DNA of 64,000 nt from a virus (Duplodnaviria; Caudoviricetes), in IMG/VR virus record IMGVR_UViG_3300029705_000039; one strand, 5' to 3'. The notes under the pieces were generated by a model. The model searched no databases and had not been told where the DNA came from. It saw only the letters and a list, made by a program, of their open reading frames with translations. The position numbers and the translations under genes are program-made. Shown here piece by piece: positions 15,015 to 63,739 of this stretch (position 1 is its first letter; the number at the start of each line of letters is the position of its first letter).

Positions 15015-17614
15015 ATGAATACTTTTATGAATGGTCTAAAAAATACTACTAATTATGGTTATACCGAAAATGGAGCAATCAAGCATAATACTACTAAGTC
15101 CGCTCTATTGGATATGTTTGCTATGGGCGCTTCTATGCGTAATCGCAGTGATAATGATGTTATTCTGATGTTTAAGAATGCCTATGAGGAAAATCCCGAA
15201 TATGCTCTGAAGTGCCTATTCTATATCCGTGACATTCGCGGTGGTAAGCTCTTTGCCTGAGCCACCCTAAGCAGTAATGTTTAGTAAAAACTCTTTGAAC
15301 CCATGCTAAAGGGGTGTCGGTTTATCCGGCTAACGGTCCAGAAGTAAGTAATTACATTATGGGTAAGGGAACCTAAGTCCTAATAGGATACGGCAATACC
15401 GTGCTAAGCAACATTTTATCCAACAGAAAAATTTTCTATCTAAATAATCCCATTCTTTCACCTTTAAGGTGAAGGGGGTGAATTCTAAAATGGGATTCAT
15501 TTATAAGATTGAAAATTCAATTAATAATAAAATCTATATTGGTTTAACTAAAAAGGCTCGCCCGAGTGATAGATTTAGCCAGCACAGGTATTTAGCTCGT
15601 CACTTAAAAGAAAATGATAAATCTTTGCTACATAAGGCTATGGCAAAGTATGGAGTGGATAATTTCACTTTTACTGTCATTGAAGAAGTAGAAAATGAGT
15701 TAATGCCTATACGCGAATAGTATTGGATACAAGAATATAATTCGCAGCAACCTAATGGCTATAATATTACTGAAGGCGGCGAAGGAACGCCAGGTTTTTC
15801 TCGTCCTCAAGCTTAGGAAGAGCGTAAAAAACGCAGTATTAGTAATAAACAATTCTTCCAAGAACATCCCGAGGTTAGAGAAGTAGTTCGTGAAAGAACT
15901 AAACAATTATGGCAAAATGATGAATATAGATAGAAAGTAACTGAAAGCAATAAACGTTTTTATGCAGAACATCCAGATATGTTTCGTGGCGAAAATAATC
16001 CCTTTTATGGGAAGCATCACACAGAAGAAACTATTTAGAAAATTCGTTCTAAATCAAAATGCCAAGCTATAGCTCAGTTAAACAAAGATACCTATGAAGT
16101 AATTCAAGTATTTGACGGAGTAAAAGCAGCAGAAAAAGCATTAAGCGTTTCTCATGGCTGGCTTAGCAAAGCCGCACGAGCCGATAAAATTGCTTACGGT
16201 TTCCGTTGGAAATTTATTGAAAGTGTAACGACTAATTGTAATTCGGAGATTAGCACCGAATGAAGTGGAGAGCCCCTATATAGAATAGGGTGAAGAGATA
16301 GTCTGCGGAGCTATGAAAATAGCTTTTCAAGTGCAAGGAGAAAGACGCTTCTTCCGCGTTTGTATGAATTGGCTTGCAAAGAATGATGCTGCCGCCGCAG
16401 AGCGTAATATGAAATATATTGCAGAATTTGGTCGTTGGGATGACCTTTATACCTTTATTGATACCCCTCTGTCTGCTGAAGCTCTGGAAATTATTAAAAA
16501 GCAATTCATTCTTGACCTGTCTTGCGAGACTCCTTCTCTGCTTGCAAAGTGGATGAAGAGCGAAAATGCCTCTTCAAAGGAAACCAAGCGTCTTGCGGAA
16601 ATTACTCGTAAGTATATTGGTCTGTCTCATAAGGAATACCGTAAGGCCCTGTCTGTTCTACGTAAGCGCATCAATGTTCTTGAGCGTCTGATGTCTGCCG
16701 GTAAGTGGGACGAGATTGAGTTCGACAAGATTCCTTCTAAGGCAGGTCTAATTTACAAGAATGCCTTTGCTCGTCACGATATTATCAAGGAAAAGTATAA
16801 GGCTTTTGCGCAGGATAAGACTACTAAGGTAAATGCGGGCGCTCTGTATCCTTATGAAGTTGTAGAAAAGGCCCTTCGGTGCCGCTATAGTTTGATGGAT
16901 AATACTGACCGTCTGATGGTTAATAAGTATTGGGAAAATCTGCCTAATTGGGTAAAGGATGCGAATTTTAACGGTATTTGTGTTTGCGACACCAGCGGCA
17001 GTATGTCAGGAACTCCCATTAACGTGGCAATTTCTCTGTCTCTTTACTGCGCGGAACGTGCGGGTGGTCCTTTTGCGAACCATTATATCTCTTTTGCATC
17101 TCGTCCTCAGTTGATTGAAACTAAGGGTGTGGATTTTGTTGACAAGGTTCGTCGCATTTATGATACTAATCTTGTTGATAATACCAACATCGAGGCTGTA
17201 TTTGACTTATTGCTGGATACTGCCATTCAGAATAATTGTTCTCAGGAAGAAATTCCTCAGAACGTTGTGATTATTTCTGATATGGAATTTGATGCGGCCG
17301 CACATTCTTCCGATATCTATAGTTGGTATCGTAATGCCGCGCCTGCTCCTTCCTATAATCTTAATCGTAATAATGTTGAAACCGTAATGGAAGGCGTTGC
17401 TCATAAGTGGGCACAGCACGGTTATAAGATGCCTCATATTGTATATTGGAATTGTGATGCTCGTAATGATAATATTCCTATGATTGGTGAGGGCTTGATT
17501 TCTTATGTAAGTGGCTTTAGTCCCTCTATTTTCCAGACTATTCTTACTGGTAAAACTGGCTATGATTTGATGTTCGAAGCTTTGAATAATGAGCGTTATG
17601 CCGTAATTCACTAA
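15015..17614 (+). CDS. DUF2828-family vWA-domain protein (possibly Ro60/TROVE-like); two exons, 15015-15245 and 16334-17614
   Basis: Splicing gives FYIRDIRGG|QGERRFFR; TENGA N-terminus, GRWDDL, MIDAS-like DTSGSM and ISDMEFD; about 503 aa. Confidence 0.8.
15246..16333 (+). mobile_element. Group I intron carrying a homing endonuclease
   Basis: P1 GGTGGT/GCCACC with U.G at the 5' splice site, terminal G16333, R-like GTAACGACTA and S-like AAGAGATAGTCTG core elements; removal restores the frame. Confidence 0.85.
15490..16263 (+). CDS. Intron-encoded GIY-YIG homing endonuclease with NUMOD3 motif (code 15, 4 TAG)
   Basis: GFIYKIEN...IYIG; GYNITEGG; GENNPFYGKHHTEET; ends at TGA 16263. Confidence 0.85.
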
Positions 17615-17925
17615 TATATAACCCGATAGGTTTCCTATCGGGTTTAAAATTGACATTTTGAAAATTATAGTATATAATATTTATAGTAAATGAGAAAGGA
17701 AGTAGCCTAACGATGAAAGGTTCATTTAACTCAGATATGACTCAATATTACATCAAAGGCACGACCTTTGAAGAATTGGACTTTGTTGAAAATGTTTTAG
17801 ATGATGAACTATTTAAAATGGGATATAGATTTTCACAGTATAGAGCTATTCCTGTAAAACTGCCGCATATTGAATTCTGTGTTGTTTATGATGTTCCTTT
17901 TATTTATTGGTTTTCTTCTAAAAGT

Positions 17926-17954
17926 TTGACAATTTAAAAAATCTAATGTATAAT
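17926..17954 (+). promoter_or_regulatory. sigmaA-type promoter upstream of the tRNA-like element
   Basis: TTGACA-17-TATAAT. Confidence 0.75.
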
Positions 17955-18019
17955 ATATACATAAGATACGGGAAGCCAACCCATAAAATGCGGCCGACCC
18001 GGGCAACGTTCCCGGACAA

Positions 18020-18099
18020 GGGAAGATGGCGAAAATGGTATACGCGCCGCAAAGTCGGAGTAAGCGGTTTTATAGGTTCGAATCCTATTCTTCTCACCA
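18020..18099 (+). ncRNA. tRNA-like RNA without a canonical anticodon loop
   Basis: GGGAAGA/TCTTCTC acceptor stem plus ACCA, D arm, T arm ATAGG-TTCGAAT-CCTAT; anticodon arm is a 4-bp stem with a 13-nt loop. Confidence 0.7.
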
Positions 18100-18837
18100 T
18101 ATTGTAATAAGGAGTAAAAAAATGAGTAAATATATTATTGGTATTTTAATGGGGATTCTCTTGACTTTAATAGTTGTTTCTACTATTTATCCCAGTATTT
18201 ATACAGATATGCAAACTGGTAATTTTTGGCAAGATGTTGCTAATGTAATTAATAATTGGATTACTACTATAAGAGAGGCGGGTGCGCAGTAATGGCTAAT
18301 AAAAAGCCCAAAACTAATATTGAAATTATTCAATCTATGCGTAATGATTGGGGCGACATAAAGCCTTATACTCGTATCCACGAAAGTAAGAAATATAAGC
18401 GGCCTAAGCATAAGAAACGAGAGGAAGAACGAGATTATGAGTAAGTTTGATAAAATTTGTGACCGAATCCAAAAGACGGCTTCATTGTGTTATCTGTTTT
18501 TCATGGCTACTTATAGTTTTAGTATTTTCTCTCAAAACCCCGATAACTGGTTCCCATTTATTATTGGTAGTGTGCACGCTTTAGCTTTGTCTTTCATTAT
18601 GGTAATAAAGTGGGAGAAATAAAGTGAAAGAATATATCATTGTAGGCAATACTACACAATATCAAAATTGTCTTATTGCCGTTTGTGGCGTAAGTAAAGC
18701 ATACGCAAATGATTGTCTAAAACAATATCAAATTAATCCTGAGTATAAAGATTATACTAATATTCATATCGAAGAAACCGACATTAATGATTCGTGGTGG
18801 AAATATGAATACGACTAAAGAAAGGAAGTAAAATAAA

Positions 18838-19284
18838 ATGACTATTGAAACTCTCCAGTCCGAAATGATTACCGCAATGAAGAGCGGCAATAAAAACCGT
18901 AAGACCGCAATTTCTGGCTATATCGCTGCCATTAAAAAGGCGGCAATTGATAAGGGTTGTCGCGACAATATTGATGAAAAGTTTGTAAATACCGAACTTA
19001 TTAAGATTCAGAAGTCTGTAAAGGAACAGGTAGATACTTGCCCCGCTTCTCGTGCTGACCTACTGGAAAAGTATAAAGCCGAACTTGAAATTATTAATGA
19101 GTTTGCTCCTGCACTTATTAGTAATCCTAATCGTATTGCGGAAATTCTACGAGATGAGTATGAAGGCCCTGTTGATAAGAAAAATCTTATGAAGTTCCTT
19201 AATACGAATTTCCGCGGCCACATGGATATGAGTGTTGCCGCGAAAGTTGTGGATGTTTATATTAGTGAGGTTAAGGAAGTATGA
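18838..19284 (+). CDS. GatB/YqeY domain protein
   Basis: LQSEMITAMKSGNK...IAAIKKAAID...ELEIINEFAP. Confidence 0.75.
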   Translation: MTIETLQSEMITAMKSGNKNRKTAISGYIAAIKKAAIDKGCRDNIDEKFVNTELIKIQKSVKEQVDTCPASRADLLEKYKAELEIINEFAPALISNPNRIAEILRDEYEGPVDKKNLMKFLNTNFRGHMDMSVAAKVVDVYISEVKEV

Positions 19285-19905
19285 TGGAAGGTATTGAGAT
19301 TCTTTCTATTGGAGAAATTGGCGTTAATCCAGTATTTAATTGGACCGCCGCGATCATTGGTGGAGTATTAATTGGGTTAATTGCGGCGTTTTTTATTGGT
19401 TTGAGTGAAGACAGTCTAGGTCTTTTTATTATAATGTTTATCCTTTGGACGCCATTTTTTGGAGCTATATGCGGCTTTAGTATTGAGAAATATGCCGATA
19501 CAGCTCCAACTTATAAGGTTGTTATTGGCGATACAGTTAGCCTTAATGAGTTTTATGATAGATATGAAGTTTTGGAACAAGATGGTAAGATTTTTACAAT
19601 AATGGAGAGGATGCCAGATGCAGATTAAAACTTTTACTAAAGATACTGCATCCTTAGAAGAAATTGAACTTTTAAATAAAGTCATTGCTTATTCTATCGC
19701 AAATGGCGGCGATAGTGGTGGCCCGTATTTTAGTTGTGAGAATGATTTATATCAAATATTAAATGATTATCTTTGGTATCGTAATTGGCAAGATGGCTTT
19801 ATTATAAGACCTCAAGATGTGACTCTCACGCATAATAACTATAAAGTTATTTATTTTAATGTTCCTCAAATTGTAGGAATTGAATAAAAGAAAGGAATAA
19901 GAATT

Positions 19906-21381
19906 ATGGCATATTGTGGTTATATTACTCGTCTAAAGAATGTGCGTAAGCATTCTAATGCTGACCGTCTGCTTCTTGCGGATTGTTTTGGTAATACTGT
20001 AATTGTATCTTTAGATTATGTTGAAAATCAGTTGGGTGTCTACTTTCCTTGTGATTTGCAGCTATCCGAAGAGTTCTGCGCCGCCAACGACCTTGTTCGT
20101 CGTAAGGACGAAAATGGTAATCCCGCTGGTGGTTATCTTGACCCTGATAAGCGAAACATCAAGGCTATGAAGCTTCGCGGCGAAAAGTCTGATGGTCTGT
20201 TCTTGCCGCTTACTTCTCTGGCGAACTTTACTACTATTTCTGACCTAAAGGAAGGCGACACCATTACTATTTTGAATGGTGTAGAGATTTGTAAGAAGTA
20301 TATTCCTAAGGTTAAGAATCGCGGAGAATGGCATGGTGGCTCCAGGGGCCGCAAGACCAAGGTAAATTTTGCCCCTACCTTCGCACAGCACGTAGATACC
20401 GAGCAGTTGGCTTATCATTTAAATGATTTCCGTGCGGGTGATGTAGTTGAACTTACTTTGAAGATGCATGGCACCTCTGGCCGCACTGGCTACTTGCCGC
20501 TTATTAAAGGCTATGCTGACTCTTTTGGTTGCACCGCAGGCAACATTATTCGTAAGATTTCTGCTCGTCTATTGAAGCGGCCCATTCCTGAACTTCATCA
20601 CGATGGTAAGCCTATTTATGAATATGGCTATGTGACTGGCACTCGTCGTGTTGTGCTTGATGAAAAGCACGATGGTGGTTTCTATGATGATAATCAGTTC
20701 CGCCTTGAAATGGCTAAGAAGTTTGAAGGTAAGCTTCATAAGGGCGAGACTGTTTATTACGAGATTGTTGGTTTCGTAAATGAAAATACTCCTATTATGG
20801 CATCTGTGAAGAACTCTAAGATTAAGGATAAAGAGTTCTCTAAGATGTATGGTGAAGAAACTGTATTCTCTTATGGTTGCGACCCTCAGGGTCGTTGGGA
20901 AGAGGTGCGTTATACTGTTCCGGCCGATGAACCTGGCGATGATGGTATTCTTCCTCCCAAGTGCGAAGTTTATATTTATCGTATGACTATGTCTAATGAC
21001 GAAGGCGATGTTGTTGAAATGTCTCCCGAACAGATGCGTCTGCGTTGCGACCAGATGGGCGTAAAGTATGTGCCGGTATTTGAGAAGTTTATGATTCCGG
21101 ACATGGGTGTAGATGTTGATAAGGATGGTATCGCGGACGCTCATGTTATCTCTCCTGGCGAATATGTTCTGCGTAAGGTGGAGCAGTATTTTGATGGTCC
21201 CGATCCTATTGGTAAGACTCATATCCGCGAAGGCGTTGTAGCGAGAATTGTAAATCGTCCTACCATTGCGGTATACAAACACAAGAACTTTAACTTCAAA
21301 ATTCTCGAAGGAATTATTAAAGATGAAGCTTCCGCTCCTGATATGGAAGAAGCTCAGGATGTTATTAACGAAGGAGTATAA
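19906..21381 (+). CDS. ATP-dependent RNA ligase (DRB0094-like, with N-terminal OB-fold)
   Basis: N-terminal RKHSNADRL and KLRGEKSDG; nucleotidyltransferase motifs KMHGTS (I), EGVV (IV), YKHK (V). Confidence 0.75.
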   Translation: MAYCGYITRLKNVRKHSNADRLLLADCFGNTVIVSLDYVENQLGVYFPCDLQLSEEFCAANDLVRRKDENGNPAGGYLDPDKRNIKAMKLRGEKSDGLFLPLTSLANFTTISDLKEGDTITILNGVEICKKYIPKVKNRGEWHGGSRGRKTKVNFAPTFAQHVDTEQLAYHLNDFRAGDVVELTLKMHGTSGRTGYLPLIKGYADSFGCTAGNIIRKISARLLKRPIPELHHDGKPIYEYGYVTGTRRVVLDEKHDGGFYDDNQFRLEMAKKFEGKLHKGETVYYEIVGFVNENTPIMASVKNSKIKDKEFSKMYGEETVFSYGCDPQGRWEEVRYTVPADEPGDDGILPPKCEVYIYRMTMSNDEGDVVEMSPEQMRLRCDQMGVKYVPVFEKFMIPDMGVDVDKDGIADAHVISPGEYVLRKVEQYFDGPDPIGKTHIREGVVARIVNRPTIAVYKHKNFNFKILEGIIKDEASAPDMEEAQDVINEGV

Positions 21382-21386
21382 AAATA

Positions 21387-21899
21387 ATGAAGAAAGTGAT
21401 TAAAATTGCTATTATTGCAATTGTTGCTGTTATACTTTTTGCCGGTATCCCGACTTTTATTTTCACCGGCATGGTTCTTGACAATCTTAGCACTGAACTT
21501 AATGCCACTCCCGCGCCGGTAATGGCACATTCTTTAAATGAAATGGTTACTTTACCTAACCATAAAGTCTCTATCAGTAATCCTGCGGCCGCCGCGATTA
21601 ATGAATATATGCATGTCCCCGAGGGCATTGAAGTTATTGAAATTCCTTTAACCATTTATAATACTGATACTAATGAAATGTATGTAGCCGCATCTTCCTT
21701 TAAACTTTATAAAAATAATATGCTATGCGAAGATTATATTTACGGTGAAAAATGGTTTATGGGTGAGACTGTAGGCGGTGGCCGCGCTTTTCAGGGATAC
21801 TTATACTATCAGGTTCCTGTGAGCACTGGTGATAGTGTGCTTGAACTGGAATATATTTATGATTATCACGGTTCAAAGGTAATTTTTAAGATTAACTAA
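21387..21899 (+). CDS. Membrane-anchored DUF4352-like protein
   Basis: N-terminal TM helix, then SSFKL...GYLYYQVP beta-sandwich pattern. Confidence 0.55.
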   Translation: MKKVIKIAIIAIVAVILFAGIPTFIFTGMVLDNLSTELNATPAPVMAHSLNEMVTLPNHKVSISNPAAAAINEYMHVPEGIEVIEIPLTIYNTDTNEMYVAASSFKLYKNNMLCEDYIYGEKWFMGETVGGGRAFQGYLYYQVPVSTGDSVLELEYIYDYHGSKVIFKIN

Positions 21900-22747
21900 T
21901 TCTATTGGAGGCGGAGTAGTCCGCCTCCTAAGGAGATTTTATGGAGCCATTATATAAATTTCTAAAGTTATTAGATGACCATATTGGCAATTGGATTGCT
22001 GATGATGATGAAATGGATAACGCTTTACTTCATCACCACGACCATGTTTGTTGGCTAAATCCTACTGAGACTCTTCACTCTCGCCACACTCGTAGAATGT
22101 GTAAGAAATTTTGTAAAAGAAACAATGTGCCCAAAAATCCGGATTATCCTAAAGAATACGATTGCGATAATTGTTCTAACTTAATTATTCGTTATAAGTA
22201 TAAAAATGATTTTATCGCTGCCTTTGGTAATTCTTATTTATATAAAAAGGAAGGTAAAATGGAATGAAAAACTACCTCAATGTAAGCCATTTTCATGCTT
22301 CCGGCAAGGACGCCAAACGCCGCAAAAAGAAGTGGAAACGTCAACGTATTAGTCGCGGCTTTTCTGATTGGGATTGTTGGGATTTGGATTATTTTTTGTG
22401 TAATTTGTTGGCAACGTCTTTGAGGCACTATGCTATGCATACGATTGGTTATAGTTCAGCAGTTGCTTCCACTTTTGAGGAGTATCAAGAACGCATTCTT
22501 CGTCTTGCCGATATGTTTGAAGAGATGGCTAATTGGGAAGAAACTCATAATCCTACCGAGGAAGATATTGAAAATGGGTTTAATTGGTATAAAGAAAATA
22601 GTGAGCAATTGGACGCTCTTACTAAAAAGGCTTTTGCGGAAATGGCAGAAGTATTTTGGAGCCTATGGGATTAAATCGCATAGGCTTTTTAATTTGACAA
22701 AAATAAAATTTTATTATATAATGTATATAGAAAGTGAGGCAATAACT

Positions 22748-23491
22748 ATGACTAATGAAGAACTTACTAAAACCGTAGAACAGCATACTCTATTTGCCGC
22801 AGAACAGTCTGACCGTGTTCCGTTATTTGGCGCGCTTTATGGTTCCCAGAATTATGGCCTCGCTACTCCGGAATCTGACGTAGATACTAAGGTTTGGTTA
22901 ATGCCGTCTTTTCACGATCTTTATACCGCGGCCAAGCCTTATTCTAAAGAGCTTCATCTTGGTGATGCCCACGTAGAAGGTAAAAACTATCGCCTAATGG
23001 TGGGAGAACTCAAAAAGCAAAATATGAATTTCCTTGAAACTATCTTTACTCCCTACTATTGGTGCGGCGATACCTATAAGGCCGAATTTGACTATCTTCG
23101 TAATAATAGAGAATTAGTGGCTCGTTATGACGTAAATCGCGGAGCACACGCTTTTATGGGGCATATGTATAATATGTATAATCGTTTTAAGCGTGATGAA
23201 AAACCCAAGCAAGTTGCGCATCTGATGCGGCTTTATGATTGCTTACAGCGTTATGCTTTGACTGACGAACCATATGAAGATTTACTGTTTCATCCTAATT
23301 CTCTTGAATACCTAATGGCGGTCCGCCGCGGTGAAGTGCCTGTAGAAGAATTGCGGGATATGGCAGAAACCTATATGGGACTTGCTGATAATCTTATCAA
23401 AGAAATGCCGCAGTATGAAGTTAATAAGGACGCGGAAAATGTATTTGATATTTTTGGTAAAGCAATGCTGATGAAAAAGTTTGGAGTTTAA
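22748..23491 (+). CDS. Pol-beta superfamily nucleotidyltransferase
   Basis: LYGSQNYGLATPESDVDTK motif; own promoter at 22694. Confidence 0.8.
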   Translation: MTNEELTKTVEQHTLFAAEQSDRVPLFGALYGSQNYGLATPESDVDTKVWLMPSFHDLYTAAKPYSKELHLGDAHVEGKNYRLMVGELKKQNMNFLETIFTPYYWCGDTYKAEFDYLRNNRELVARYDVNRGAHAFMGHMYNMYNRFKRDEKPKQVAHLMRLYDCLQRYALTDEPYEDLLFHPNSLEYLMAVRRGEVPVEELRDMAETYMGLADNLIKEMPQYEVNKDAENVFDIFGKAMLMKKFGV

Positions 23492-43556: not shown

Positions 43557-43647
43557 TGGGGATTGGTGTAATGGCAGCACGGCGGACTCTAAATCCGTGA
43601 GCCCCCTGAAGGCGTAAGTCAGGGTTCAAATCCCTGGTCCCCAGCCA
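43557..43647 (+). tRNA. Amber suppressor tRNA (anticodon CTA) with Gln-type acceptor and long variable arm
   Basis: TGGGGAT/GTCCCCA-G-CCA; GCGGA-CTCTAAA-TCCGT with CTA at 43589-43591; 21-nt variable region. Confidence 0.9.
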
Positions 43648-50378: not shown

Positions 50379-50520
50379 GCAAAACATAACACTTGAGGTT
50401 ATGTTGAGTAATGAAATAATTCCCCGTCCCAAGCCGCGGTGAATTATGGAACTCTAAGGGGGTTTTAGTGTAGAACCACAACTTGGGTAGGCTTAAATGC
50501 CGAAGGAAAAACACTTTTAT

Positions 50521-50639
50521 GGAAACGTGGTGTAACGGTAGCACTTAAACAAGTCGGTATAGGCCGCGGACCGGTCAGCAATCTTTCTTTAGACGATTCT
50601 GCAAAAATTGAGGAGTTGGTTCGAATCCAACCGTTTCCA
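50521..50639 (+). ncRNA. tRNA-like RNA with the anticodon arm replaced by about 65 nt
   Basis: GGAAACG/CGTTTCC acceptor, D arm, T arm GTTGG-TTCGAAT-CCAAC; insert contains CAGCAA. Confidence 0.65.
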
Positions 50640-50658
50640 AATTAGCGGCATTCATTGT

Positions 50659-52164: not shown

Positions 52165-52309
52165 GGGGATTAAGCTAACCCTTCTAAAAACACGCGCTGT
52201 GGTAAATAGAGAAGTGAGACGCAAGGGTATCCGGCATAAGGTATCTCTAAGCCTGACCGGTAGAGTAGCGCCCGGAGAGTTTTTACGCCTGTTCTCTCCA
52301 ACTTAATAT

Positions 52310-52395
52310 GGGTAGATATACCGTAAGTGGTAGCGGGGCAGGCTGTAAACTTGCTGTCAATGACTCGGGTGGTTCGACTCCATCTCTGCCCACCA
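52310..52395 (+). tRNA. tRNA-Tyr(GTA)
   Basis: GCAGG-CTGTAAA-CTTGC, variable arm, CCA. Confidence 0.9.
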
Positions 52396-52423
52396 ATTTA
52401 AATAAAAGAAAGGAATTAATTTT

Positions 52424-52645
52424 ATGGAAAAGGAAACTAAGTTTGAAACCTATACTTTTACTCATTCTAATGAAAATGATGTTCTTACTTCCCTGAACTT
52501 CACTGTTCCCCCTGTAGGTGTAACTATTGAAACTTTCCTCTCTATGTGTCGCAAATTTGCCTATGCTCTTGGTTATGCTGAAAAGAGTATTGATGAATGG
52601 TTTGGCGAAGATGGAGACGAATCCTTTACAGAGTTTATGGAATGA
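52424..52645 (+). CDS. Small acidic hypothetical protein
   Basis: AAGGA RBS, 73 aa. Confidence 0.6.
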   Translation: MEKETKFETYTFTHSNENDVLTSLNFTVPPVGVTIETFLSMCRKFAYALGYAEKSIDEWFGEDGDESFTEFME

Positions 52646-52697
52646 CCGCGGCAAAGGAATATATATTCATTTTTATCATAATGGAGAGTGAATAAAT

Positions 52698-53252
52698 ATG
52701 TATTCGCAAGCATTGTCCGCGGGATGTATGTTAGGCTTTGCCGCTCTTCTTTCTTGCTGTGTTGAGAATCAAATTTTAGCGGCGTTATTCTTTTCAATAG
52801 GACTTTTGTATATACGAATAAGTAAATTTTATCTATATACAGGCCAAATTCAAAATCTAAAAGACCATTCTACTTCTTTAAAAGAATTAGGAATTGGCTT
52901 ATTTGGCAATATTAGCGGCGTTACGCTTTTCTTCTCTTTATTTTTCTTCCTTGATTTTCACGCGGCCGCAGATAAATATTTTGCTATTACTGCTGTAAAA
53001 TGGTCTTATCCTTGGTATCATTATATTGCTTCTAGTATGTGTTGCGGTATTTTGATGACAATTGCAACAAAAAAAGAAAGTCCTTTATGGTTAAGTAGTT
53101 TATGTGTAATGGCTTTTATTCTTGCTGGTTTTAATCATTGTGTTGCTGATTGGTTCTATGTTTTCGGAAGCATGAGCCCGTTAAAATATTTCTATTGGTC
53201 TTTAACTGTTATTGGTAATTTTCTTGGTGGTTATTTGGCCGCAACCAAATAA
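52698..53252 (+). CDS. Formate/nitrite transporter-family protein (short)
   Basis: FSIGL...LYTG...GN...FILAGFNHCVAD...GNFLGG. Confidence 0.75.
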   Translation: MYSQALSAGCMLGFAALLSCCVENQILAALFFSIGLLYIRISKFYLYTGQIQNLKDHSTSLKELGIGLFGNISGVTLFFSLFFFLDFHAAADKYFAITAVKWSYPWYHYIASSMCCGILMTIATKKESPLWLSSLCVMAFILAGFNHCVADWFYVFGSMSPLKYFYWSLTVIGNFLGGYLAATK

Positions 53253-53261
53253 CCCTTACTT

Positions 53262-53818
53262 CGGGGTGTAGCGCAGTTTGGCTAGCGCATTCGCTTTGGG
53301 AAAAGAGATTTTTGCTGATATAAAATGTTAGATAATACTCAACAAAAAGGAACTATTACTGAATTACACTGTATCTTAGATTTAACTAATTTGGGTTATC
53401 GGTGTTTAAAACCAGTAGATGAAAGTTCTAAATATGATATAGTTGTCGATTTAGGGCAAGGAAAATTTAAACGCATACAATGTAAAACTGCTTCTTGGGC
53501 TAATGATACAAAACAAGAGCATGTTGCGTTTCAAATTAATACTTGCAGTCAAACCACTAATACAAAAACGACTACTCGTCATAAATATTCTAAAGATGAT
53601 ATTGATTATTTTTACACTTGGTTTGAAGGTCAAGGATATTTAGTCTCCATTGAAGAAGCAACGGGAATTGGCTTTAGATGGCGGTATGAATATCCTGAAA
53701 CGAATCAGAAACAGGGAATTCATATCGCTAGTGAATATAAAATTGAGGAGGTTTTAAAGGCAATCTAAGATTTTCCTGGAGCGAAGGGTCGTGAGTTCAA
53801 ATCTCACCTCCCCGACCA
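53262..53818 (+). tRNA. tRNA-Pro(TGG) split by a 479-nt insertion (exons about 53262-53301 and 53781-53818)
   Basis: 5' half CGGGGTG...TTCGC-TTTGGGA and 3' half GCGAA-GGGTC-GTGAG-TTCAAAT-CTCAC-CTCCCCG-ACCA reconstitute a cloverleaf. Confidence 0.85.
53325..53768 (+). CDS. PD-(D/E)XK endonuclease of the group I intron-associated (I-Ssp6803I-like) type, inside tRNA-Pro
   Basis: KGTITE...YDIVVD...RIQCKT...YSKDDIDYF. Confidence 0.8.
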   Translation: MLDNTQQKGTITELHCILDLTNLGYRCLKPVDESSKYDIVVDLGQGKFKRIQCKTASWANDTKQEHVAFQINTCSQTTNTKTTTRHKYSKDDIDYFYTWFEGQGYLVSIEEATGIGFRWRYEYPETNQKQGIHIASEYKIEEVLKAI

Positions 53819-53826
53819 ATTAAAAT

Positions 53827-53855
53827 TTGACATTTTTCAAATTTTATAATATAAT
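53827..53855 (+). promoter_or_regulatory. sigmaA-type promoter
   Basis: TTGACA-17-TATAAT. Confidence 0.75.
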
Positions 53856-53949
53856 ATATACATAAGGTAAGGAACTTAATCAAATGCTCTCACCTCACGC
53901 TACACGCACCTCCTTGGGCTTTGTTCTATTACTTCCTTACCTTTTATGA

Positions 53950-54026
53950 TGCGGAGTGGAGCAGTTGGTAGCTCGTTAGCCCCATAAGCTAAAGGTCGCA
54001 GGTTCGAGTCCTGCCTCTCGCACCCA
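53950..54026 (+). tRNA. Initiator-like tRNA-Met(CAT), atypical (C33, acceptor bulge)
   Basis: fMet-like D arm; TTAGC-CCCATAA-GCTAA. Confidence 0.7.
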
Positions 54027-54030
54027 ATAA

Positions 54031-54700
54031 TAATTACAACAAAAAGGTATGCTTAGAAGCAGCAATCCTCTAAGGAGTAGGTCAAGCACCATAAGTGCAA
54101 ATAAAGTAGTGTAATGTCGGGCTGAATCACAGTGGCATATGGCTATGAAGTGCTTGTGGGAAAATGTGAGTAATCTTTTGGCGTAATAGCACATTTGTTG
54201 TAATTGCCTATCTACTAGCGTAGAAAAGGTTCCTGGATACGTCTAGGCGTATCCTATATGGAAAGGTTAAGGTCGCTACTTGACCTTTCCACTCACCGAC
54301 TTGCGGACGTAATCCGCTAAGGAAGAAACCGACTTTAGAAGATAAGTAGACGCGCAGGATGGCCACCATGGAGAGTGCGAGGTTCAAGTCCTCGGCGGTT
54401 AAATATACTTTATCTTTGGTTAGTCCTCAGCCAGGCGTTTGCGGAAACGTCGTGACAAACATAGATTATGGCAAAATGGCAAAAGGAATCCGCATTCTTA
54501 GTAGCCTATGGTGGGAAGAGGATGCCCCACTTTAGACGGAAATAGCTACCCGTCGGAGCCGCGTGTGCAGGATTCGCGGCGAATAAAATAAATAAATCGC
54601 TGTATGCGGCGAAGGCCGTTGAAGCACCTGTTAGCTAAAGGTGGTCTTTCGAAAGTCTATCGTAGAATAAATTTCTACGCGGTGCGGAGATAGCCGTATA
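54031..54700 (+). ncRNA. Hairpin-rich non-coding region; candidate structured RNA(s)
   Basis: AATTACAACAAA/TTTGTTGTAATT long-range stem, many local hairpins, isolated T-loop CGAGG-TTCAAGT-CCTCG. Confidence 0.4.
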
Positions 54701-54714
54701 AACTCCTTTTATAT

Positions 54715-54788
54715 GGGGTCATGATGTAATGGTAACATAATTGCCCTGCAAGCAATTTTTCGGGATTCGAATTCCCGTGGCTCCACCA
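54715..54788 (+). tRNA. tRNA-Ala(TGC)
   Basis: G3:U70; ATTGC-CCTGCAA-GCAAT. Confidence 0.85.
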
Positions 54789-55135
54789 TTTAAAATTAAT
54801 GAAAGGAAGTACAATAATATGACCAATGAAACCAAGGTTGCTCTTCTCACCGCTCGAAAGAATCTTCTTAATGACCGCAATCCCGCGGAAAATATTCATA
54901 TTATTCATAAAATTGAAAGGCTGATTAGAAAATATTCTAAGGAGTGATTTCAATGGAAAAATTATGGAAATGGTTAAGAGCGCATTTTTGTATTCACGAT
55001 TATGTACATCAAGAAACTCATACCATTCGTAATTTTAAAACTCAACCTCCCTATTTTCTGGCAACCTATAAATGCTCTAAGTGCGGCAAAGTAATTAGCA
55101 AATATATTGGTTAAGCGGCTTTGCCGCCGTTTTAT

Positions 55136-55291
55136 AGCCGAGTAGCCAAGTGGAAAGGCACGGGACTTCGTAAAGTAGTGTAATTGGTAGCAATGTTTCC
55201 GGTTAGCGCGCAGGGGACGGTGTTGGTTCGAATCCAACCTTTACGGCCATGACTCCCGCATTCGCTGGTTCGAGCCCAGCCTCGGCTGCCA
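55136..55291 (+). tRNA. tRNA-Gln(TTG) split in its anticodon by a nested tRNA-like element (exons 55136-55168 and 55250-55291)
   Basis: Joining CGGGA-CTT | TGAC-TCCCG gives a normal cloverleaf with AGCCGAG/CTCGGCT-G-CCA. Confidence 0.85.
55169..55249 (+). ncRNA. Nested 81-nt tRNA-like element ending in CCA
   Basis: CGTAAAG/CTTTACG-G-CCA, D arm, T arm GTTGG-TTCGAAT-CCAAC, non-canonical anticodon arm (7-bp stem, 12-nt loop). Confidence 0.8.
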
Positions 55292-55542
55292 AAGGGATAA
55301 CAATGCCCTTGTATGAAAACTTTCTTGCCCCAGTTTGTATAGATGCGGGATAATTCCTTCGTCTTAGTTTTGGACAAGAATCGTGCAAACCTTATAGAAC
55401 TGTAGGTTTATATGGAGGTCCGCGGCTTCCTAATTTAGAACAGTTCTTTTAGATTTGGTGCTTACCAAACTAAACCTATCGAGGACGTGTGAGGCGGGAA
55501 TGTTTGAGCCTGATTAAGTTCAGGGTGTAGATAGGTTTTTAT

Positions 55543-55618
55543 GCGAGGTTAGCTCAGTTGGGAGAGCACCTGCCCTACAAGCAGGGTGTCGGCGGTTCGA
55601 GCCCGTCACTTCGCACCA
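55543..55618 (+). tRNA. tRNA-Val(TAC)
   Basis: CCTGC-CCTACAA-GCAGG, CCA. Confidence 0.85.
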
Positions 55619-62950: not shown

Positions 62951-63739
62951 ATGGGATTAATTTATATGCTAACCAGCCCCAGTGGAAGATCTTATATTGG
63001 ATAGACAAAGCGACCCTTTACTATACGATGGAATCAGCATAAAAGAGAGGCGGAAACTGGAAATGATACTCCTCTTTATAAAGCCATACGAAAATATGGC
63101 GCCGATTCTTTTTAGCATACAATATTAATAGAAACAGATAATGACAAATTAAATGAGTTAGAATAGTATTATATTAAATAGTATAATACGTATAATAATG
63201 GTTATAATTGCACTATCGGTGGCGAAGGAAATTGCAAAATTTCTGATGAGACTATTATTCAACTTTGGGAGAGTGGGTTGTGCTCAGCAGATATAGCACG
63301 GCAATTAAATGTATAGGGACATACTATTGAAAATAGAATTAAAAGTCTTTATTCTGATGCTGAAATATAGGAACGTCGATACGCTTCAATTGGGAAAAAA
63401 CTTCAATTAAAAGATAATAATATAAAAACTCTATGGGATTAGGGCTATAGTGTTACTTAGATTTCGGATATATTATCCTATGATAGACATACAGTAAGCC
63501 GTGTTTTATAGAGACTGGGAATTACTCCTGAACAGTTAGAATATTCTAGAAAGGCCCACAGCGGTGATAAGAAAAATTCTCCCATAATACAATATGATAA
63601 AAATGGTAATTTTATATAGGAATGGTTTTCAATTAGTGAAGCGGCGAGACAATTAAATATTCACGCTGGTAATATTTGCAAAGTTCTAAAAAAAGAAAGA
63701 AAAACTACTGGTGGTTATATATTTAAATATAAGGAGTAA
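62951..63739 (+). CDS. Free-standing GIY-YIG homing endonuclease with HTH/NUMOD1 domains (code 15)
   Basis: GLIY...SYIG(TAG)T = YIGQT; NGYNCTIGG; many TAG. Confidence 0.85.

What the first reader, a model, noticed from the sequence alone, without database searches (positions are those of the whole stretch)
53262..53818. tRNA-Pro interrupted by an endonuclease gene with no room for a group I ribozyme
Seen: a 479-nt insertion lies in the anticodon loop, with the junction ambiguous over a GGA repeat. Of this, 444 nt is the PD-(D/E)XK ORF, leaving only about 23 and 12 nt of flank. The flanks pair (GGAAAA/TTTTCC and AGATT/AATCT) as an extension of the anticodon stem. Established: related endonucleases such as I-Ssp6803I sit in self-splicing group I introns of tRNA genes, which need a core of roughly 200 nt or more. 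Inference: this is either a protein-spliced, archaeal-style intron relying on nuclease cleavage plus the phage ligase, or a homing element that destroyed the tRNA. Both halves look intact, which favours function.
Basis: partly seen in the sequence, partly recalled or inferred. Interest (0 to 1): 0.8.

Follow-up and report, generated by a model that had tools for sequence, protein, structure and literature searches.

The report
Ribozyme-less endonuclease insert splitting phage tRNA-Pro
A phage proline-tRNA gene is split right after its anticodon by a mobile 479-base insert that holds only a DNA-cutting "homing" enzyme gene and a conserved RNA rod, with no self-splicing RNA; so either proteins cut it out and rejoin the tRNA, which is unknown in bacteria and their viruses, or a selfish gene is switching phage tRNAs off.

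Summary
Window 53262-53818 is a tRNA-Pro(UGG) gene split at 36|37 by a 479-nt insert. Of this, 444 nt is a PDDEXK_5 (I-Ssp6803I family) endonuclease ORF.

- **No group I intron.** Rfam finds no core, although it scores three distant relatives of the same ORF family above threshold. Synonymous sites show no ribozyme-sized constraint. The 5' exon ends in G, not U.
- **No archaeal-type intron.** There is no bulge-helix-bulge, and related phages encode no EndA, RtcB or RNase III.
- **A covarying RNA rod.** In 39 distinct homologues the insert ends extend the anticodon stem. The last three insert bases pair with the anticodon. A conserved 7x7 internal loop follows, then a second helix.
- **The same architecture in other tRNAs.** It occurs at 36|37 in Asp, Asn, Lys, Ser, Val, Arg and Trp.
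- **Mobile.** Insert-free alleles with identical exons exist. Identical inserts sit in tRNA-Pro genes differing at 13-14 exon positions, so intact halves do not prove function.

My best reading is protein-dependent splicing (staggered cut, then phage RNA ligase), at about 0.4. The rival, an unspliced selfish insert, is at about 0.35.

This scan has already reported the same class on other DNA. I found no published description.

The parts
53262..53299 (+). 5' exon of tRNA-Pro(UGG): acceptor 5' strand, D arm, anticodon stem 5' strand (53290-53294) and loop positions 32-36 (53295-53299, UUUGG)
   Evidence: ARAGORN with introns allowed. Cloverleaf stems covary in 39 homologues. Joined exons match insert-free phage tRNA-Pro genes.
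53300..53778 (+). 479-nt mobile insert (ribozyme-less intervening sequence) at 36|37
   Evidence: Clean presence/absence between L001 and L194, whose flanks are 99-100% identical. No Rfam ribozyme hit.
53300..53304 (+). Rod helix H1, insert 5' strand (GAAAA). It pairs with 53771-53775.
   Evidence: Columns 39-43 with 533-537 of alignment A3. Four of the five pairs show double changes.
53305..53311 (+). 5' strand of the conserved 7x7 internal loop (GAGAUUU)
   Evidence: G(A/C)GAUU(U/C) in 39/39 homologues. The second base covaries with the sixth base of the opposite strand: A with G in 26 sequences, C with A in 13.
53312..53316 (+). Helix H2, 5' strand (UUGCU). It pairs with 53759-53763.
   Evidence: Columns 51-62 with 514-525 of A3. 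Ten of 12 pairs show double changes, and the helix reaches 12-13 bp in some homologues.
53325..53768 (+). Homing-endonuclease ORF, 147 aa, PD-(D/E)XK, I-Ssp6803I family
   Evidence: Pfam PF11645, E 6.9e-22, 78.4 bits (cut-off 26.1). PDB 2OST, E 8.2e-6, with the YD...D and Q-x-K motifs aligned. 326 homologous clusters found.
53759..53763 (+). Helix H2, 3' strand (GGCAA), lying inside the last codons of the ORF
53764..53770 (+). 3' strand of the conserved 7x7 internal loop (UCUAAGA). It contains the ORF stop codon TAA at 53766-53768.
   Evidence: (U/C)(C/U)UAA(G/A)A in 39/39 homologues, and the stop is always TAA.
53771..53778 (+). Rod helix H1, insert 3' strand. UUUUC pairs with the insert 5' end. 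The last three bases, CUG, pair with anticodon UGG (C-G, U.G, G.U).
   Evidence: The same anticodon complementarity occurs in seven other tRNA families.
53779..53818 (+). 3' exon of tRNA-Pro: G37, A38, anticodon stem 3' strand, variable loop, T arm, acceptor 3' strand, ACCA
19906..21381 (+). Phage RNA ligase. It is a candidate sealing enzyme acting in trans; the link to this insert is inferred, not shown.
   Evidence: phrog_968 'RNA ligase', E 1.3e-67. Weak PF09414 hit. Clear homologues in 4 of 5 related phage genomes and a weak hit in the fifth.

Best explanation
This is a member of a large, apparently undescribed family of mobile intervening sequences in phage tRNA genes.

Shown:
- A PDDEXK_5 homing endonuclease gene has inserted precisely between tRNA positions 36 and 37.
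- It moves between tRNA-Pro alleles with almost no co-conversion of the exons.
- It carries no ribozyme.
- Its two short ends are selected at the RNA level to form a rod that continues the anticodon stem: 32:38, 33:37, three pairs between the anticodon and the last three insert bases, five insert-insert pairs, a conserved 7x7 non-Watson-Crick loop, then a second helix.

Inferred:
- The rod exists so that the insert can be removed from the pre-tRNA by proteins.
- A two-fold symmetric endonuclease would cut both strands at the 3' side of the 3-bp anticodon duplex, that is after G36 and after the last insert base. This leaves 3-nt 3' overhangs.
- An ATP-dependent RNA ligase, with the phage's own phrog_968 ligase as the candidate, would then seal G36 to G37.
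- The most economical nuclease candidate is the insert's own protein. The two RNA cut sites coincide with the two positions at which, as I recall without having verified it, this enzyme family cuts the insert-free DNA (either side of the anticodon, 3-nt 3' overhangs).
For: No self-splicing core:
- Only 35 nt of the insert is non-coding.
- There is no group I or other ribozyme hit at E up to 10 in the window, nor at E up to 1 in ten related loci.
- The same search scores Intron_gpI at 59-65 bits beside distant PDDEXK_5 ORFs in L161, L167 and L168.
- Synonymous-site diversity is flat along the ORF in 37 homologues.
- The 5' exon ends in G.

RNA-level selection on the rod:
- 98.3% of cells are paired, against 40-49% when the partners are slid. 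34 of 43 pairs show double changes.
- The U34.G and G35.U wobble pairs are kept in 36-39 of 39 sequences. This works only in sense-strand RNA.
- The 7x7 loop is conserved, with a perfect A/G to C/A covariation.

Generality: the last three insert bases complement the anticodon in Pro, Asp, Asn, Lys, Ser, Val, Arg and Trp inserts, all consistent with 36|37. The group I controls lack this feature.

Cost argument:
- 4 of 17 tRNA genes in G001 and 4 of 21 in G002 are interrupted (2 and 2 by this ~470-nt endonuclease type).
- The Pro, Val and Asp genes interrupted by this type are the only copies of their isoacceptors.
- Interrupted alleles show no excess of stem mismatches: 0.77% of stem cells are mismatched.

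Sealing capacity: an RNA ligase is present in this window and in 4-5 of 5 related genomes.
Against:
- No bacterial or phage enzyme is known to cut inside a continuous RNA helix with a 3-nt stagger.
- PD-(D/E)XK DNA endonucleases are not known to cut double-stranded RNA.
- The RNA ligase lies in an RNA-repair-type cassette (Ro-like protein, nucleotidyltransferase). It is explained equally well as a defence against host tRNA nucleases.
- One related complete genome (G004) has only a weak ligase hit.
- Intact exons are not evidence of function, because identical inserts sit in different alleles.
No reasons were given.
- The DNA cleavage geometry of I-Ssp6803I is recalled from Bonocora & Shub 2001 and could not be checked. 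The relevant papers are not held.
Confidence: 0.4

Rival explanations
1. The insert is selfish and never spliced. The endonuclease gene homes into the anticodon loop and switches the tRNA off. The RNA rod serves the endonuclease gene, not the tRNA. One option is that the flanking cloverleaf plus a closed rod acts as a tRNA scaffold: RNase P and RNase Z trim it, and it protects the embedded mRNA. Another is that the rod is an RNA mimic of the DNA target, which the endonuclease binds to regulate its own translation.
For: - Presence/absence polymorphism occurs with 99-100% identical flanks.
- Identical inserts lie in alleles differing at 13-14 exon positions. Insert and exon divergence do not correlate (Spearman 0.05, p 0.25). 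The element therefore spreads fast enough to persist even if it is harmful, and its exons are always young.
- This reading needs no unknown enzyme.
- Phage tRNAs are often dispensable (general knowledge).
- This window's copy has a U-U mismatch in the acceptor stem.
- A target-mimic rod would also explain why the anticodon triplet must be paired.
Against: - About a fifth of the tRNA genes in two near-complete genomes carry some insert (two each of this type). The Pro, Val and Asp genes hit by this type have no spare copy.
- No decayed exon was seen among 37 distinct interrupted alleles.
- Simple stabilisation would favour Watson-Crick pairs, yet the two wobble pairs at the anticodon are conserved.
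- A stabilising hairpin could be built from insert sequence alone, yet every family pairs its last three bases with the exon anticodon.
Confidence: 0.35
2. The rod, with its conserved 7x7 loop, is a small undescribed ribozyme. It cleaves at one or both junctions, leaving 2',3'-cyclic phosphate and 5'-OH ends. A host RtcB-type ligase, or reversal of the reaction, then joins the exons.
For: - A strongly conserved non-Watson-Crick internal loop sits 5 and 8 nt from the two junctions and is flanked by covarying helices.
- Sub-threshold twister-like and HDV-like hits occur in related tRNA arrays, so small ribozymes are used there.
Against: - The 7x7 loop is specific to the Pro family. The Ser, Arg and Trp rods are almost fully paired.
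- No known small-ribozyme model matches the insert.
- The inferred cleavage sites lie in paired regions.
Confidence: 0.08
3. A cryptic group I (or group II) ribozyme overlaps the ORF.
For: The closest studied relative, I-Ssp6803I, sits in a group I intron at the same tRNA position. Rfam models can miss divergent introns: the ~735-nt HNH-bearing tRNA inserts in related phages also gave no hit.
Against: - Only 35 nt is non-coding.
- The synonymous-site profile is flat.
- No hit at E up to 10, while the positive controls score above gathering.
- The base before the 5' splice site is G, not U.
- The 5' exon pairs with the insert's 3' end, not with an internal guide near its 5' end.
Confidence: 0.02

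Closest known systems
Group I intron of the Synechocystis PCC 6803 tRNA-fMet gene encoding I-Ssp6803I (PDB 2OST, Pfam PF11645)
   Same: Same endonuclease family. Same host-gene type and, as I recall, the same insertion point after anticodon position 36. Mobile. True group I versions with PDDEXK_5 ORFs were found here in L161, L167 and L168.
   Different: That intron has a ribozyme core of about 200 nt and self-splices. This insert has 35 non-coding nt, no core and G rather than U before the splice site. Instead it has a rod that pairs its 3' end with the anticodon.
Archaeal bulge-helix-bulge introns (some carrying homing endonuclease genes), spliced by EndA and RtcB
   Same: A protein-spliced intron in or near the anticodon loop. 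Intron bases pair with anticodon-loop bases. Two symmetric cuts are made by a two-fold symmetric enzyme of the PD-(D/E)XK fold class.
   Different: There are no 3-nt bulges and no 4-bp central helix. The position is 36|37, not 37/38. Five related phage genomes contain no EndA or RtcB, and the hosts are bacteria.
'Enigmatic' tRNA introns of Lak megaphages (Devoto et al. 2018/2019, bioRxiv 10.1101/356790; PMC6784885)
   Same: Gut phage tRNA genes interrupted in the anticodon loop by inserts that match no Rfam intron, with insert-free alleles in relatives. This window also holds a tRNA-like 81-nt insert in tRNA-Arg at 55136-55291.
   Different: The Lak introns are short, have no ORF and some look like tRNAs. 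This one is an endonuclease gene plus a rod.
Free-standing homing endonuclease genes in phage tRNA regions (for example T4 SegB)
   Same: Selfish nuclease genes that target tRNA gene clusters and spread on co-infection.
   Different: Those sit between genes. This one sits inside the anticodon loop and has RNA ends adapted to the tRNA.
RNase III-excised intervening sequences of bacterial 23S rRNA
   Same: A ribozyme-less insert whose ends form a long helix. It is removed by a host protein.
   Different: Those fragments are not religated. RNase III leaves 2-nt overhangs, whereas the rod here is centred on a base pair, which forces an odd (3-nt) stagger if the 7-nt loop is to be restored.

Membership tests
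Group I intron | Conserved catalytic core (P3-P9) detectable by covariance model | tested here: not met
   No Intron_gpI hit at gathering score or at E up to 10, and none in ten related loci. The same model scores 59-65 bits in L161, L167 and L168.
Group I intron | Room for a core of about 200 nt, or RNA constraint overlapping the ORF | tested here: not met
   25 + 10 nt are non-coding. Synonymous diversity is flat at 0.35-0.65 along the ORF, with only a 13-codon dip.
Group I intron | U before the 5' splice site in a U.G pair with an internal guide; G as the last intron base | tested here: not met
   The 5' exon ends in G35 or G36. The exon end pairs with the insert's 3' end. The last insert base is G in 37 of 39 sequences, which fits, but that alone is not diagnostic.
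Group I intron | GTP-dependent self-splicing | not testable with these tools
   Needs an in vitro transcript.
PDDEXK_5 / I-Ssp6803I homing endonucleases | Sequence membership above the curated threshold | tested here: met
   PF11645, 78.4 bits against a 26.1 cut-off, covering residues 4-139. 2OST, E 8.2e-6.
PDDEXK_5 / I-Ssp6803I homing endonucleases | Catalytic motif residues present and conserved | tested here: met
   Y37-D38, D42 and Q52-x-K54 align with the YD...D and Q-x-K of 2OST. They are invariant in 26 homologues.
PDDEXK_5 / I-Ssp6803I homing endonucleases | Cleaves the insert-free tRNA gene at the anticodon | not testable with these tools
   Needs an enzyme assay. Insert-free target alleles are in hand (L194, L248, L176).
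Archaeal BHB intron | Two 3-nt bulges separated by a 4-bp helix at the splice sites | tested here: not met
   The junctions lie in a continuous, covarying helix. Positions 32-35 cannot pair with the four bases that a BHB would require (read from the sequence).
Archaeal BHB intron | EndA-type splicing endonuclease available | tested here: not met
   PF01974 is absent from five related phage genomes, while the archaeal controls are positive. Host genomes were not examined.
Mobile (homing) element | Precise presence/absence between near-identical flanks | tested here: met
   L001 against L194: 99.4% and 100% identical flanks, with a clean indel of 470-480 nt. The exons are 77/77 identical to insert-free alleles.
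Mobile (homing) element | Same element in different target alleles | tested here: met
   L003 against L102: 0 insert differences and 14 exon differences. L001 against L098: 1 against 13.

The most novel reading that the evidence does not exclude
The homing endonuclease doubles as the splicing endonuclease. The RNA rod rebuilds, in duplex RNA, the enzyme's DNA cleavage site around the anticodon triplet. The same dimer that cuts insert-free DNA would therefore cut the pre-tRNA after G36 and after the last insert base, and a phage RNA ligase would seal the tRNA. This would be the first protein-only tRNA splicing pathway in bacteria or their viruses, and a mobile intron that brings its own splicing nuclease instead of a ribozyme.
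Probability: 0.15. Interest if true: 0.95.

Novelty: new variant of a known kind. Interest (0 to 1): 0.72.

Why it matters
Bacterial and phage tRNA introns are textbook group I ribozymes, and protein-only tRNA splicing is considered a trait of archaea and eukaryotes. This family is large: 326 protein clusters for the Pro type alone, and at least eight tRNA isoacceptors. It keeps a homing endonuclease in the classic tRNA site but has replaced the ribozyme with a short covarying rod that pairs with the anticodon.

If the insert is spliced, phages have a protein-based tRNA splicing route, possibly driven by the endonuclease itself. That would be a missing link between selfish nuclease genes and protein-spliced introns.

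If it is not spliced, selfish genes are silencing about a tenth of the tRNA genes in abundant gut and rumen phages (two genes each in the two genomes read in full), using the tRNA as an RNA scaffold or target mimic. That is also undescribed.

Either way, standard annotation misses these tRNA genes. Default ARAGORN and Rfam did so here. The question can be settled with one Northern blot or RT-PCR and a three-component in vitro assay.

Tried and rejected
- **I-Ssp6803I cleavage geometry.** PMC1864971 and PMC3008403 are not held. Reviews that are held do not give the overhang. The geometry is therefore quoted from memory.
- **Wasted scan.** It was corrected.
- **BHB motif.** Rejected by reading the junctions.
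- **RNase III.** Rejected as the precise nuclease. The rod is centred on base pair 35, so symmetric cuts that restore a 7-nt loop must be staggered by an odd number, not 2. No phage RNase III was found.
This insert has no acceptor or T-arm mimic. Treating either half of the rod as an acceptor stem puts the cuts at the wrong positions.
- **Transposon reading** (GGA as a target duplication plus terminal inverted repeats). Rejected because the complementarity relies on G.U wobbles and covaries, which points to RNA rather than DNA.
- **Sticky-end cut-and-paste insertion.** Rejected because the right-hand overhangs would not be complementary as DNA.
- **Exon covariation as proof that the interrupted tRNA works.** I held this view until searches showed that the insert hops between alleles.
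No covariation support.
- **Structure prediction and complex prediction.** Not run, because they would not discriminate between the readings.

Full report
**What is there**

Default ARAGORN and Rfam see no tRNA between 52395 and 53950. With introns allowed, ARAGORN calls tRNA-Pro at 53262-53818.

Reading the sequence gives a complete cloverleaf:
- acceptor CGGGGUG/CUCCCCG, with one U-U mismatch at 6:67;
- D stem GCGC/GCGC;
- anticodon stem UUCGC/GCGAA;
- T stem GUGAG/CUCAC;
- A73 followed by CCA.

The anticodon loop UUUGGGA is interrupted by 479 nt. The ORF at 53325-53768 (147 aa) matches Pfam PF11645 (PDDEXK_5) at E 6.9e-22. It matches the I-Ssp6803I structure 2OST at E 8.2e-6, with the YD...D and Q-x-K motifs aligned.

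**Where the junction lies**

The GGA repeat allows four possible junctions in this window. In homologues L116, L123, L130 and L134 the base after G36 is A, with a compensating change opposite it, while the 3' GGA is invariant. The 5' exon therefore ends at 35 or 36.

Sister inserts in other tRNAs give sensible anticodons and isotypes only with a 36|37 junction. These are Lys UUU, Ser GCU with a long variable arm, Val UAC, Arg ACG and Trp CCA.

With 36|37 the parts are: 5' exon 53262-53299, insert 53300-53778, 3' exon 53779-53818.

**Not a group I intron, not an archaeal intron**

Evidence against group I:
- Only 25 + 10 nt of the insert is non-coding.
- Rfam 15 gives no intron or ribozyme hit at gathering score, or at E up to 10 over 52300-55600. 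It gives none at E up to 1 in ten related loci.
- The search can detect such introns. Three distant PDDEXK_5 loci (L161, L167, L168) score Intron_gpI at 58.8-64.8 bits, above the gathering score of 50, directly beside the ORF.
- In a codon alignment of 37 homologues, synonymous-site entropy is flat at 0.35-0.65 of its maximum. The only dip covers 13 codons rich in two-fold codons. No ribozyme-sized RNA constraint overlaps the ORF.
- The base before the 5' splice site is G, not U.

Evidence against an archaeal-type intron:
- There is no bulge-helix-bulge. Both junctions lie in a continuous helix.
- Five related phage genomes encode no EndA, RtcB or RNase III, while control genomes are positive.

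**A large family**

The ORF has 326 homologous clusters in the protein collection.
- Five IMG/VR loci carry it at 78-81% identity. A sixth locus, L028, was found through a DNA pattern search.
- A further 43 metagenome loci carry it at 59-85% identity.
- Wherever the contig allows a call, the ORF sits inside tRNA-Pro (UGG, or CGG in L131 and L133) with a 470-495 nt insert.
- The sources are human-gut and, judging from sample names, other animal-gut or rumen-type metagenomes. The contigs are 118-190 kb, carry amber-suppressor tRNAs and show signs of TAG recoding.

**The RNA rod**

I tested a structure on alignment A3 (39 distinct sequences). It comprised:
- the four cloverleaf stems;
- a 15-pair helix made of the anticodon stem, 32:38, 33:37, three anticodon-insert pairs and five insert-insert pairs;
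- a second helix, H2.

Results:
- 98.3% of cells pair, against 40-49% with slid partners and 76.8% in shuffles.
- 34 of 43 pairs show double changes.

Between the two insert helices lies a 7x7 internal loop, G(A/C)GAUU(U/C) opposite (U/C)(C/U)UAA(G/A)A. It contains the invariant TAA stop. Its second and sixth positions covary perfectly: A with G in 26 sequences and C with A in 13. That pattern suggests a structured non-Watson-Crick motif; this is an inference.

The pairs U34.G and G35.U are wobbles, conserved in 36-39 of 39 sequences. Selection therefore acts on sense-strand RNA, not on DNA.

**The same rule in other tRNAs**

Endonuclease-bearing inserts of about 450-490 nt (737 nt for the Trp case) occur in tRNA-Asp, Asn, Lys, Ser(GCU), Val, Arg(ACG) and Trp of related phages. 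All show in-register pairing from 33:37 onward. In all of them the last three insert bases complement the anticodon:

| tRNA (anticodon) | Last three insert bases |
|---|---|
| Pro (UGG) | CUG |
| Asp (GUC) | GGC |
| Asn (GUU) | AGC |
| Lys (UUU) | AAA |
| Ser (GCU) | AGC |
| Val (UAC) | GUA |
| Arg (ACG) | CGU |
| Trp (CCA) | UGG |

The group I controls show no such pairing. The 7x7 loop is specific to the Pro family; other rods are almost fully paired.

**Mobility**

- Insert-free tRNA-Pro genes in L194, L248 and L176 are 77/77 identical to the joined exons of L001 and L094.
- L001 and L194 align at 99.4% and 100% on either side of a clean indel.
- L003 and L102 have identical inserts, with 0 differences over about 500 columns. 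Their exons differ at 14 positions, including three of the five anticodon-stem pairs.
- L001 and L098 differ at 1 insert position and 13 exon positions.
- Across 36 sequences, insert distance does not correlate with distal-exon distance (Spearman 0.05, p 0.25). It correlates only weakly with the anticodon stem (0.22, p 0.012).

The element therefore hops between diverged alleles with almost no co-conversion. The consequence matters: the intact, covarying exons, with a stem mismatch rate of 0.77%, may be recently captured from working genes. They do not prove that the interrupted tRNA functions.

**How it might work**

If the 7-nt loop is to be restored, the RNA must be cut after G36 and after the last insert base. 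In the rod these two sites flank the 3-bp anticodon duplex on opposite strands and would leave 3-nt 3' overhangs. The centre of symmetry is on base pair 35.

This geometry fits a two-fold symmetric nuclease and excludes a precise RNase III cut, which leaves 2 nt. In the Pro family both strands even read G|GA at the cut.

As I recall from Bonocora & Shub 2001, I-Ssp6803I cuts the insert-free DNA on each side of the anticodon triplet and leaves 3-nt 3' extensions. The papers are not held, so I could not verify this. If it holds for this family, the two RNA sites are exactly the two DNA cut positions once the rod is laid over the target. That would explain why every family pairs its last three bases with the anticodon. 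A metal-dependent cut would leave 3'-OH and 5'-P ends, which are direct substrates for an ATP-dependent ligase.

The window encodes an RNA ligase at 19906-21381 (phrog_968, E 1.3e-67). It lies between a Ro-like RNA-binding protein (phrog_850) and a nucleotidyltransferase (phrog_388). Homologues are clear in four of five related genomes and weak in the fifth. That cassette is, however, equally well explained as repair of tRNAs cut by host defences.

**Weighing the readings**

For splicing:
- the anticodon-pairing rule in eight tRNA families;
- the conserved wobble pairs and the conserved loop;
- the burden on the phage: 4 of 17 and 4 of 21 tRNA genes are interrupted in two near-complete genomes, two in each by this endonuclease type, and the Pro, Val and Asp genes hit by that type are sole copies;
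- the absence of decayed exons.

Against splicing:
- no RNA data;
- no precedent for such an enzyme activity;
- high mobility makes a harmful element sustainable;
- the rod could instead stabilise or regulate the endonuclease mRNA, either as a tRNA scaffold or as an RNA mimic of the DNA target;

| Reading | Odds |
|---|---|
| Protein-dependent splicing (endonuclease itself as the RNA nuclease: about 0.15) | about 0.4 |
| Unspliced selfish insert | about 0.35 |
| Undescribed small ribozyme | about 0.08 |
| Cryptic group I intron | about 0.02 |

**Literature and earlier scan notes**

- Williams 2020 (bioRxiv 10.1101/2020.01.27.920355) catalogues only tRNA introns that hit a group I model.
- Devoto et al. 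2018 (bioRxiv 10.1101/356790) report short 'enigmatic' introns in Lak phage tRNAs.
- A 2025 paper on zeta crAss-like phages mentions homing endonucleases and introns but not this class.
- I found no description of ribozyme-less, endonuclease-bearing tRNA inserts with an anticodon-pairing rod.
- This scan has reported the same class several times on other DNA, including a tRNA-Pro(UGG) case.

Noticed in passing
It is split at 36|37 by an 81-nt insert. ARAGORN calls that insert a tRNA at 55169-55249, with a 4-base anticodon and an encoded CCA; Rfam scores it 36 bits over 55169-55246. The inner acceptor stem uses outer anticodon bases C35 and G36. This is a tRNA-in-tRNA arrangement like the Lak phage 'enigmatic introns'.
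   Followed up: partly
window 16265-23488: An RNA-repair-type cassette: a Ro-like RNA-binding protein (phrog_850; DUF7788 + DUF2828), a tRNA-like element at 18020-18099 (called Pro-CGG or Thr depending on settings, possibly a Y-RNA-like partner), an RNA ligase (phrog_968) and a nucleotidyltransferase (phrog_388, weak RlaP hit). Sub-threshold YrlA hits occur in related tRNA arrays (L130 2960-3072; L119 917-1032).
   Followed up: partly
window 50406-50640: A drum RNA (RF02958, 75.8 bits) sits inside the tRNA array. It is directly followed by a stretch that ARAGORN calls tRNA-Lys(CUU) with a 31-nt insert. That insert shows no rod pairing, so the call may be spurious.
   Followed up: no
window 43557-43647 and whole window: An amber-suppressor tRNA (anticodon CUA). 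Reading TAG through raises the total length of + strand ORFs of 100 aa or more from 12,248 to 16,595 aa, which suggests TAG recoding in part of the genome. In L130 the endonuclease ORF itself has an in-frame TAG aligned with a conserved Gln codon, so the mobile gene follows its host phage's code.
   Followed up: partly
window 52698-53252: A 184-aa ORF with a formate/nitrite transporter family hit (PF01226, E 9e-19) sits inside the tRNA array, immediately upstream of the split tRNA-Pro.
   Followed up: no
L028:1241-2065; L223:6256-7075; L194:6359-7182; G001:C1:1543-2366; G002:C1:23116-23934: A second class of tRNA insert, about 735 nt long. In L028 it holds a 99-aa HNH-type ORF (HNH judged by eye from its CxxC/HH motifs, not by a family search) and about 430 non-coding nt. 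The L028, L223 and L194 copies, which sit in different tRNAs, share a conserved 3' end. None gives an Rfam group I hit, so these may be divergent ribozymes or another unknown class.
   Followed up: partly
L103:1989-2043; L109:2304-2392: A sub-threshold HDV-like hit (27 bits) lies immediately 3' of the split tRNA-Pro. A twister-P1-like hit (43 bits, E 2e-6) lies in a related tRNA array. Small self-cleaving ribozymes may process these tRNA transcripts.
   Followed up: no
window 53861-53948: A long imperfect hairpin (10-bp perfect base, z -2.5) lies between the split tRNA-Pro and the next tRNA-Met. It matches no Rfam family.
   Followed up: partly
window 62951-63739: A GIY-YIG homing endonuclease with NUMOD and HTH domains: a second, unrelated selfish nuclease gene in the window.
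   Followed up: no
L002 vs L003 (alignments A1, A3): Two otherwise near-identical interrupted tRNA-Pro genes differ mainly by compensatory changes in the anticodon stem, next to the insertion site. This is the opposite of a co-conversion gradient. It may reflect target-site evasion in an arms race with the endonuclease.
   Followed up: partly
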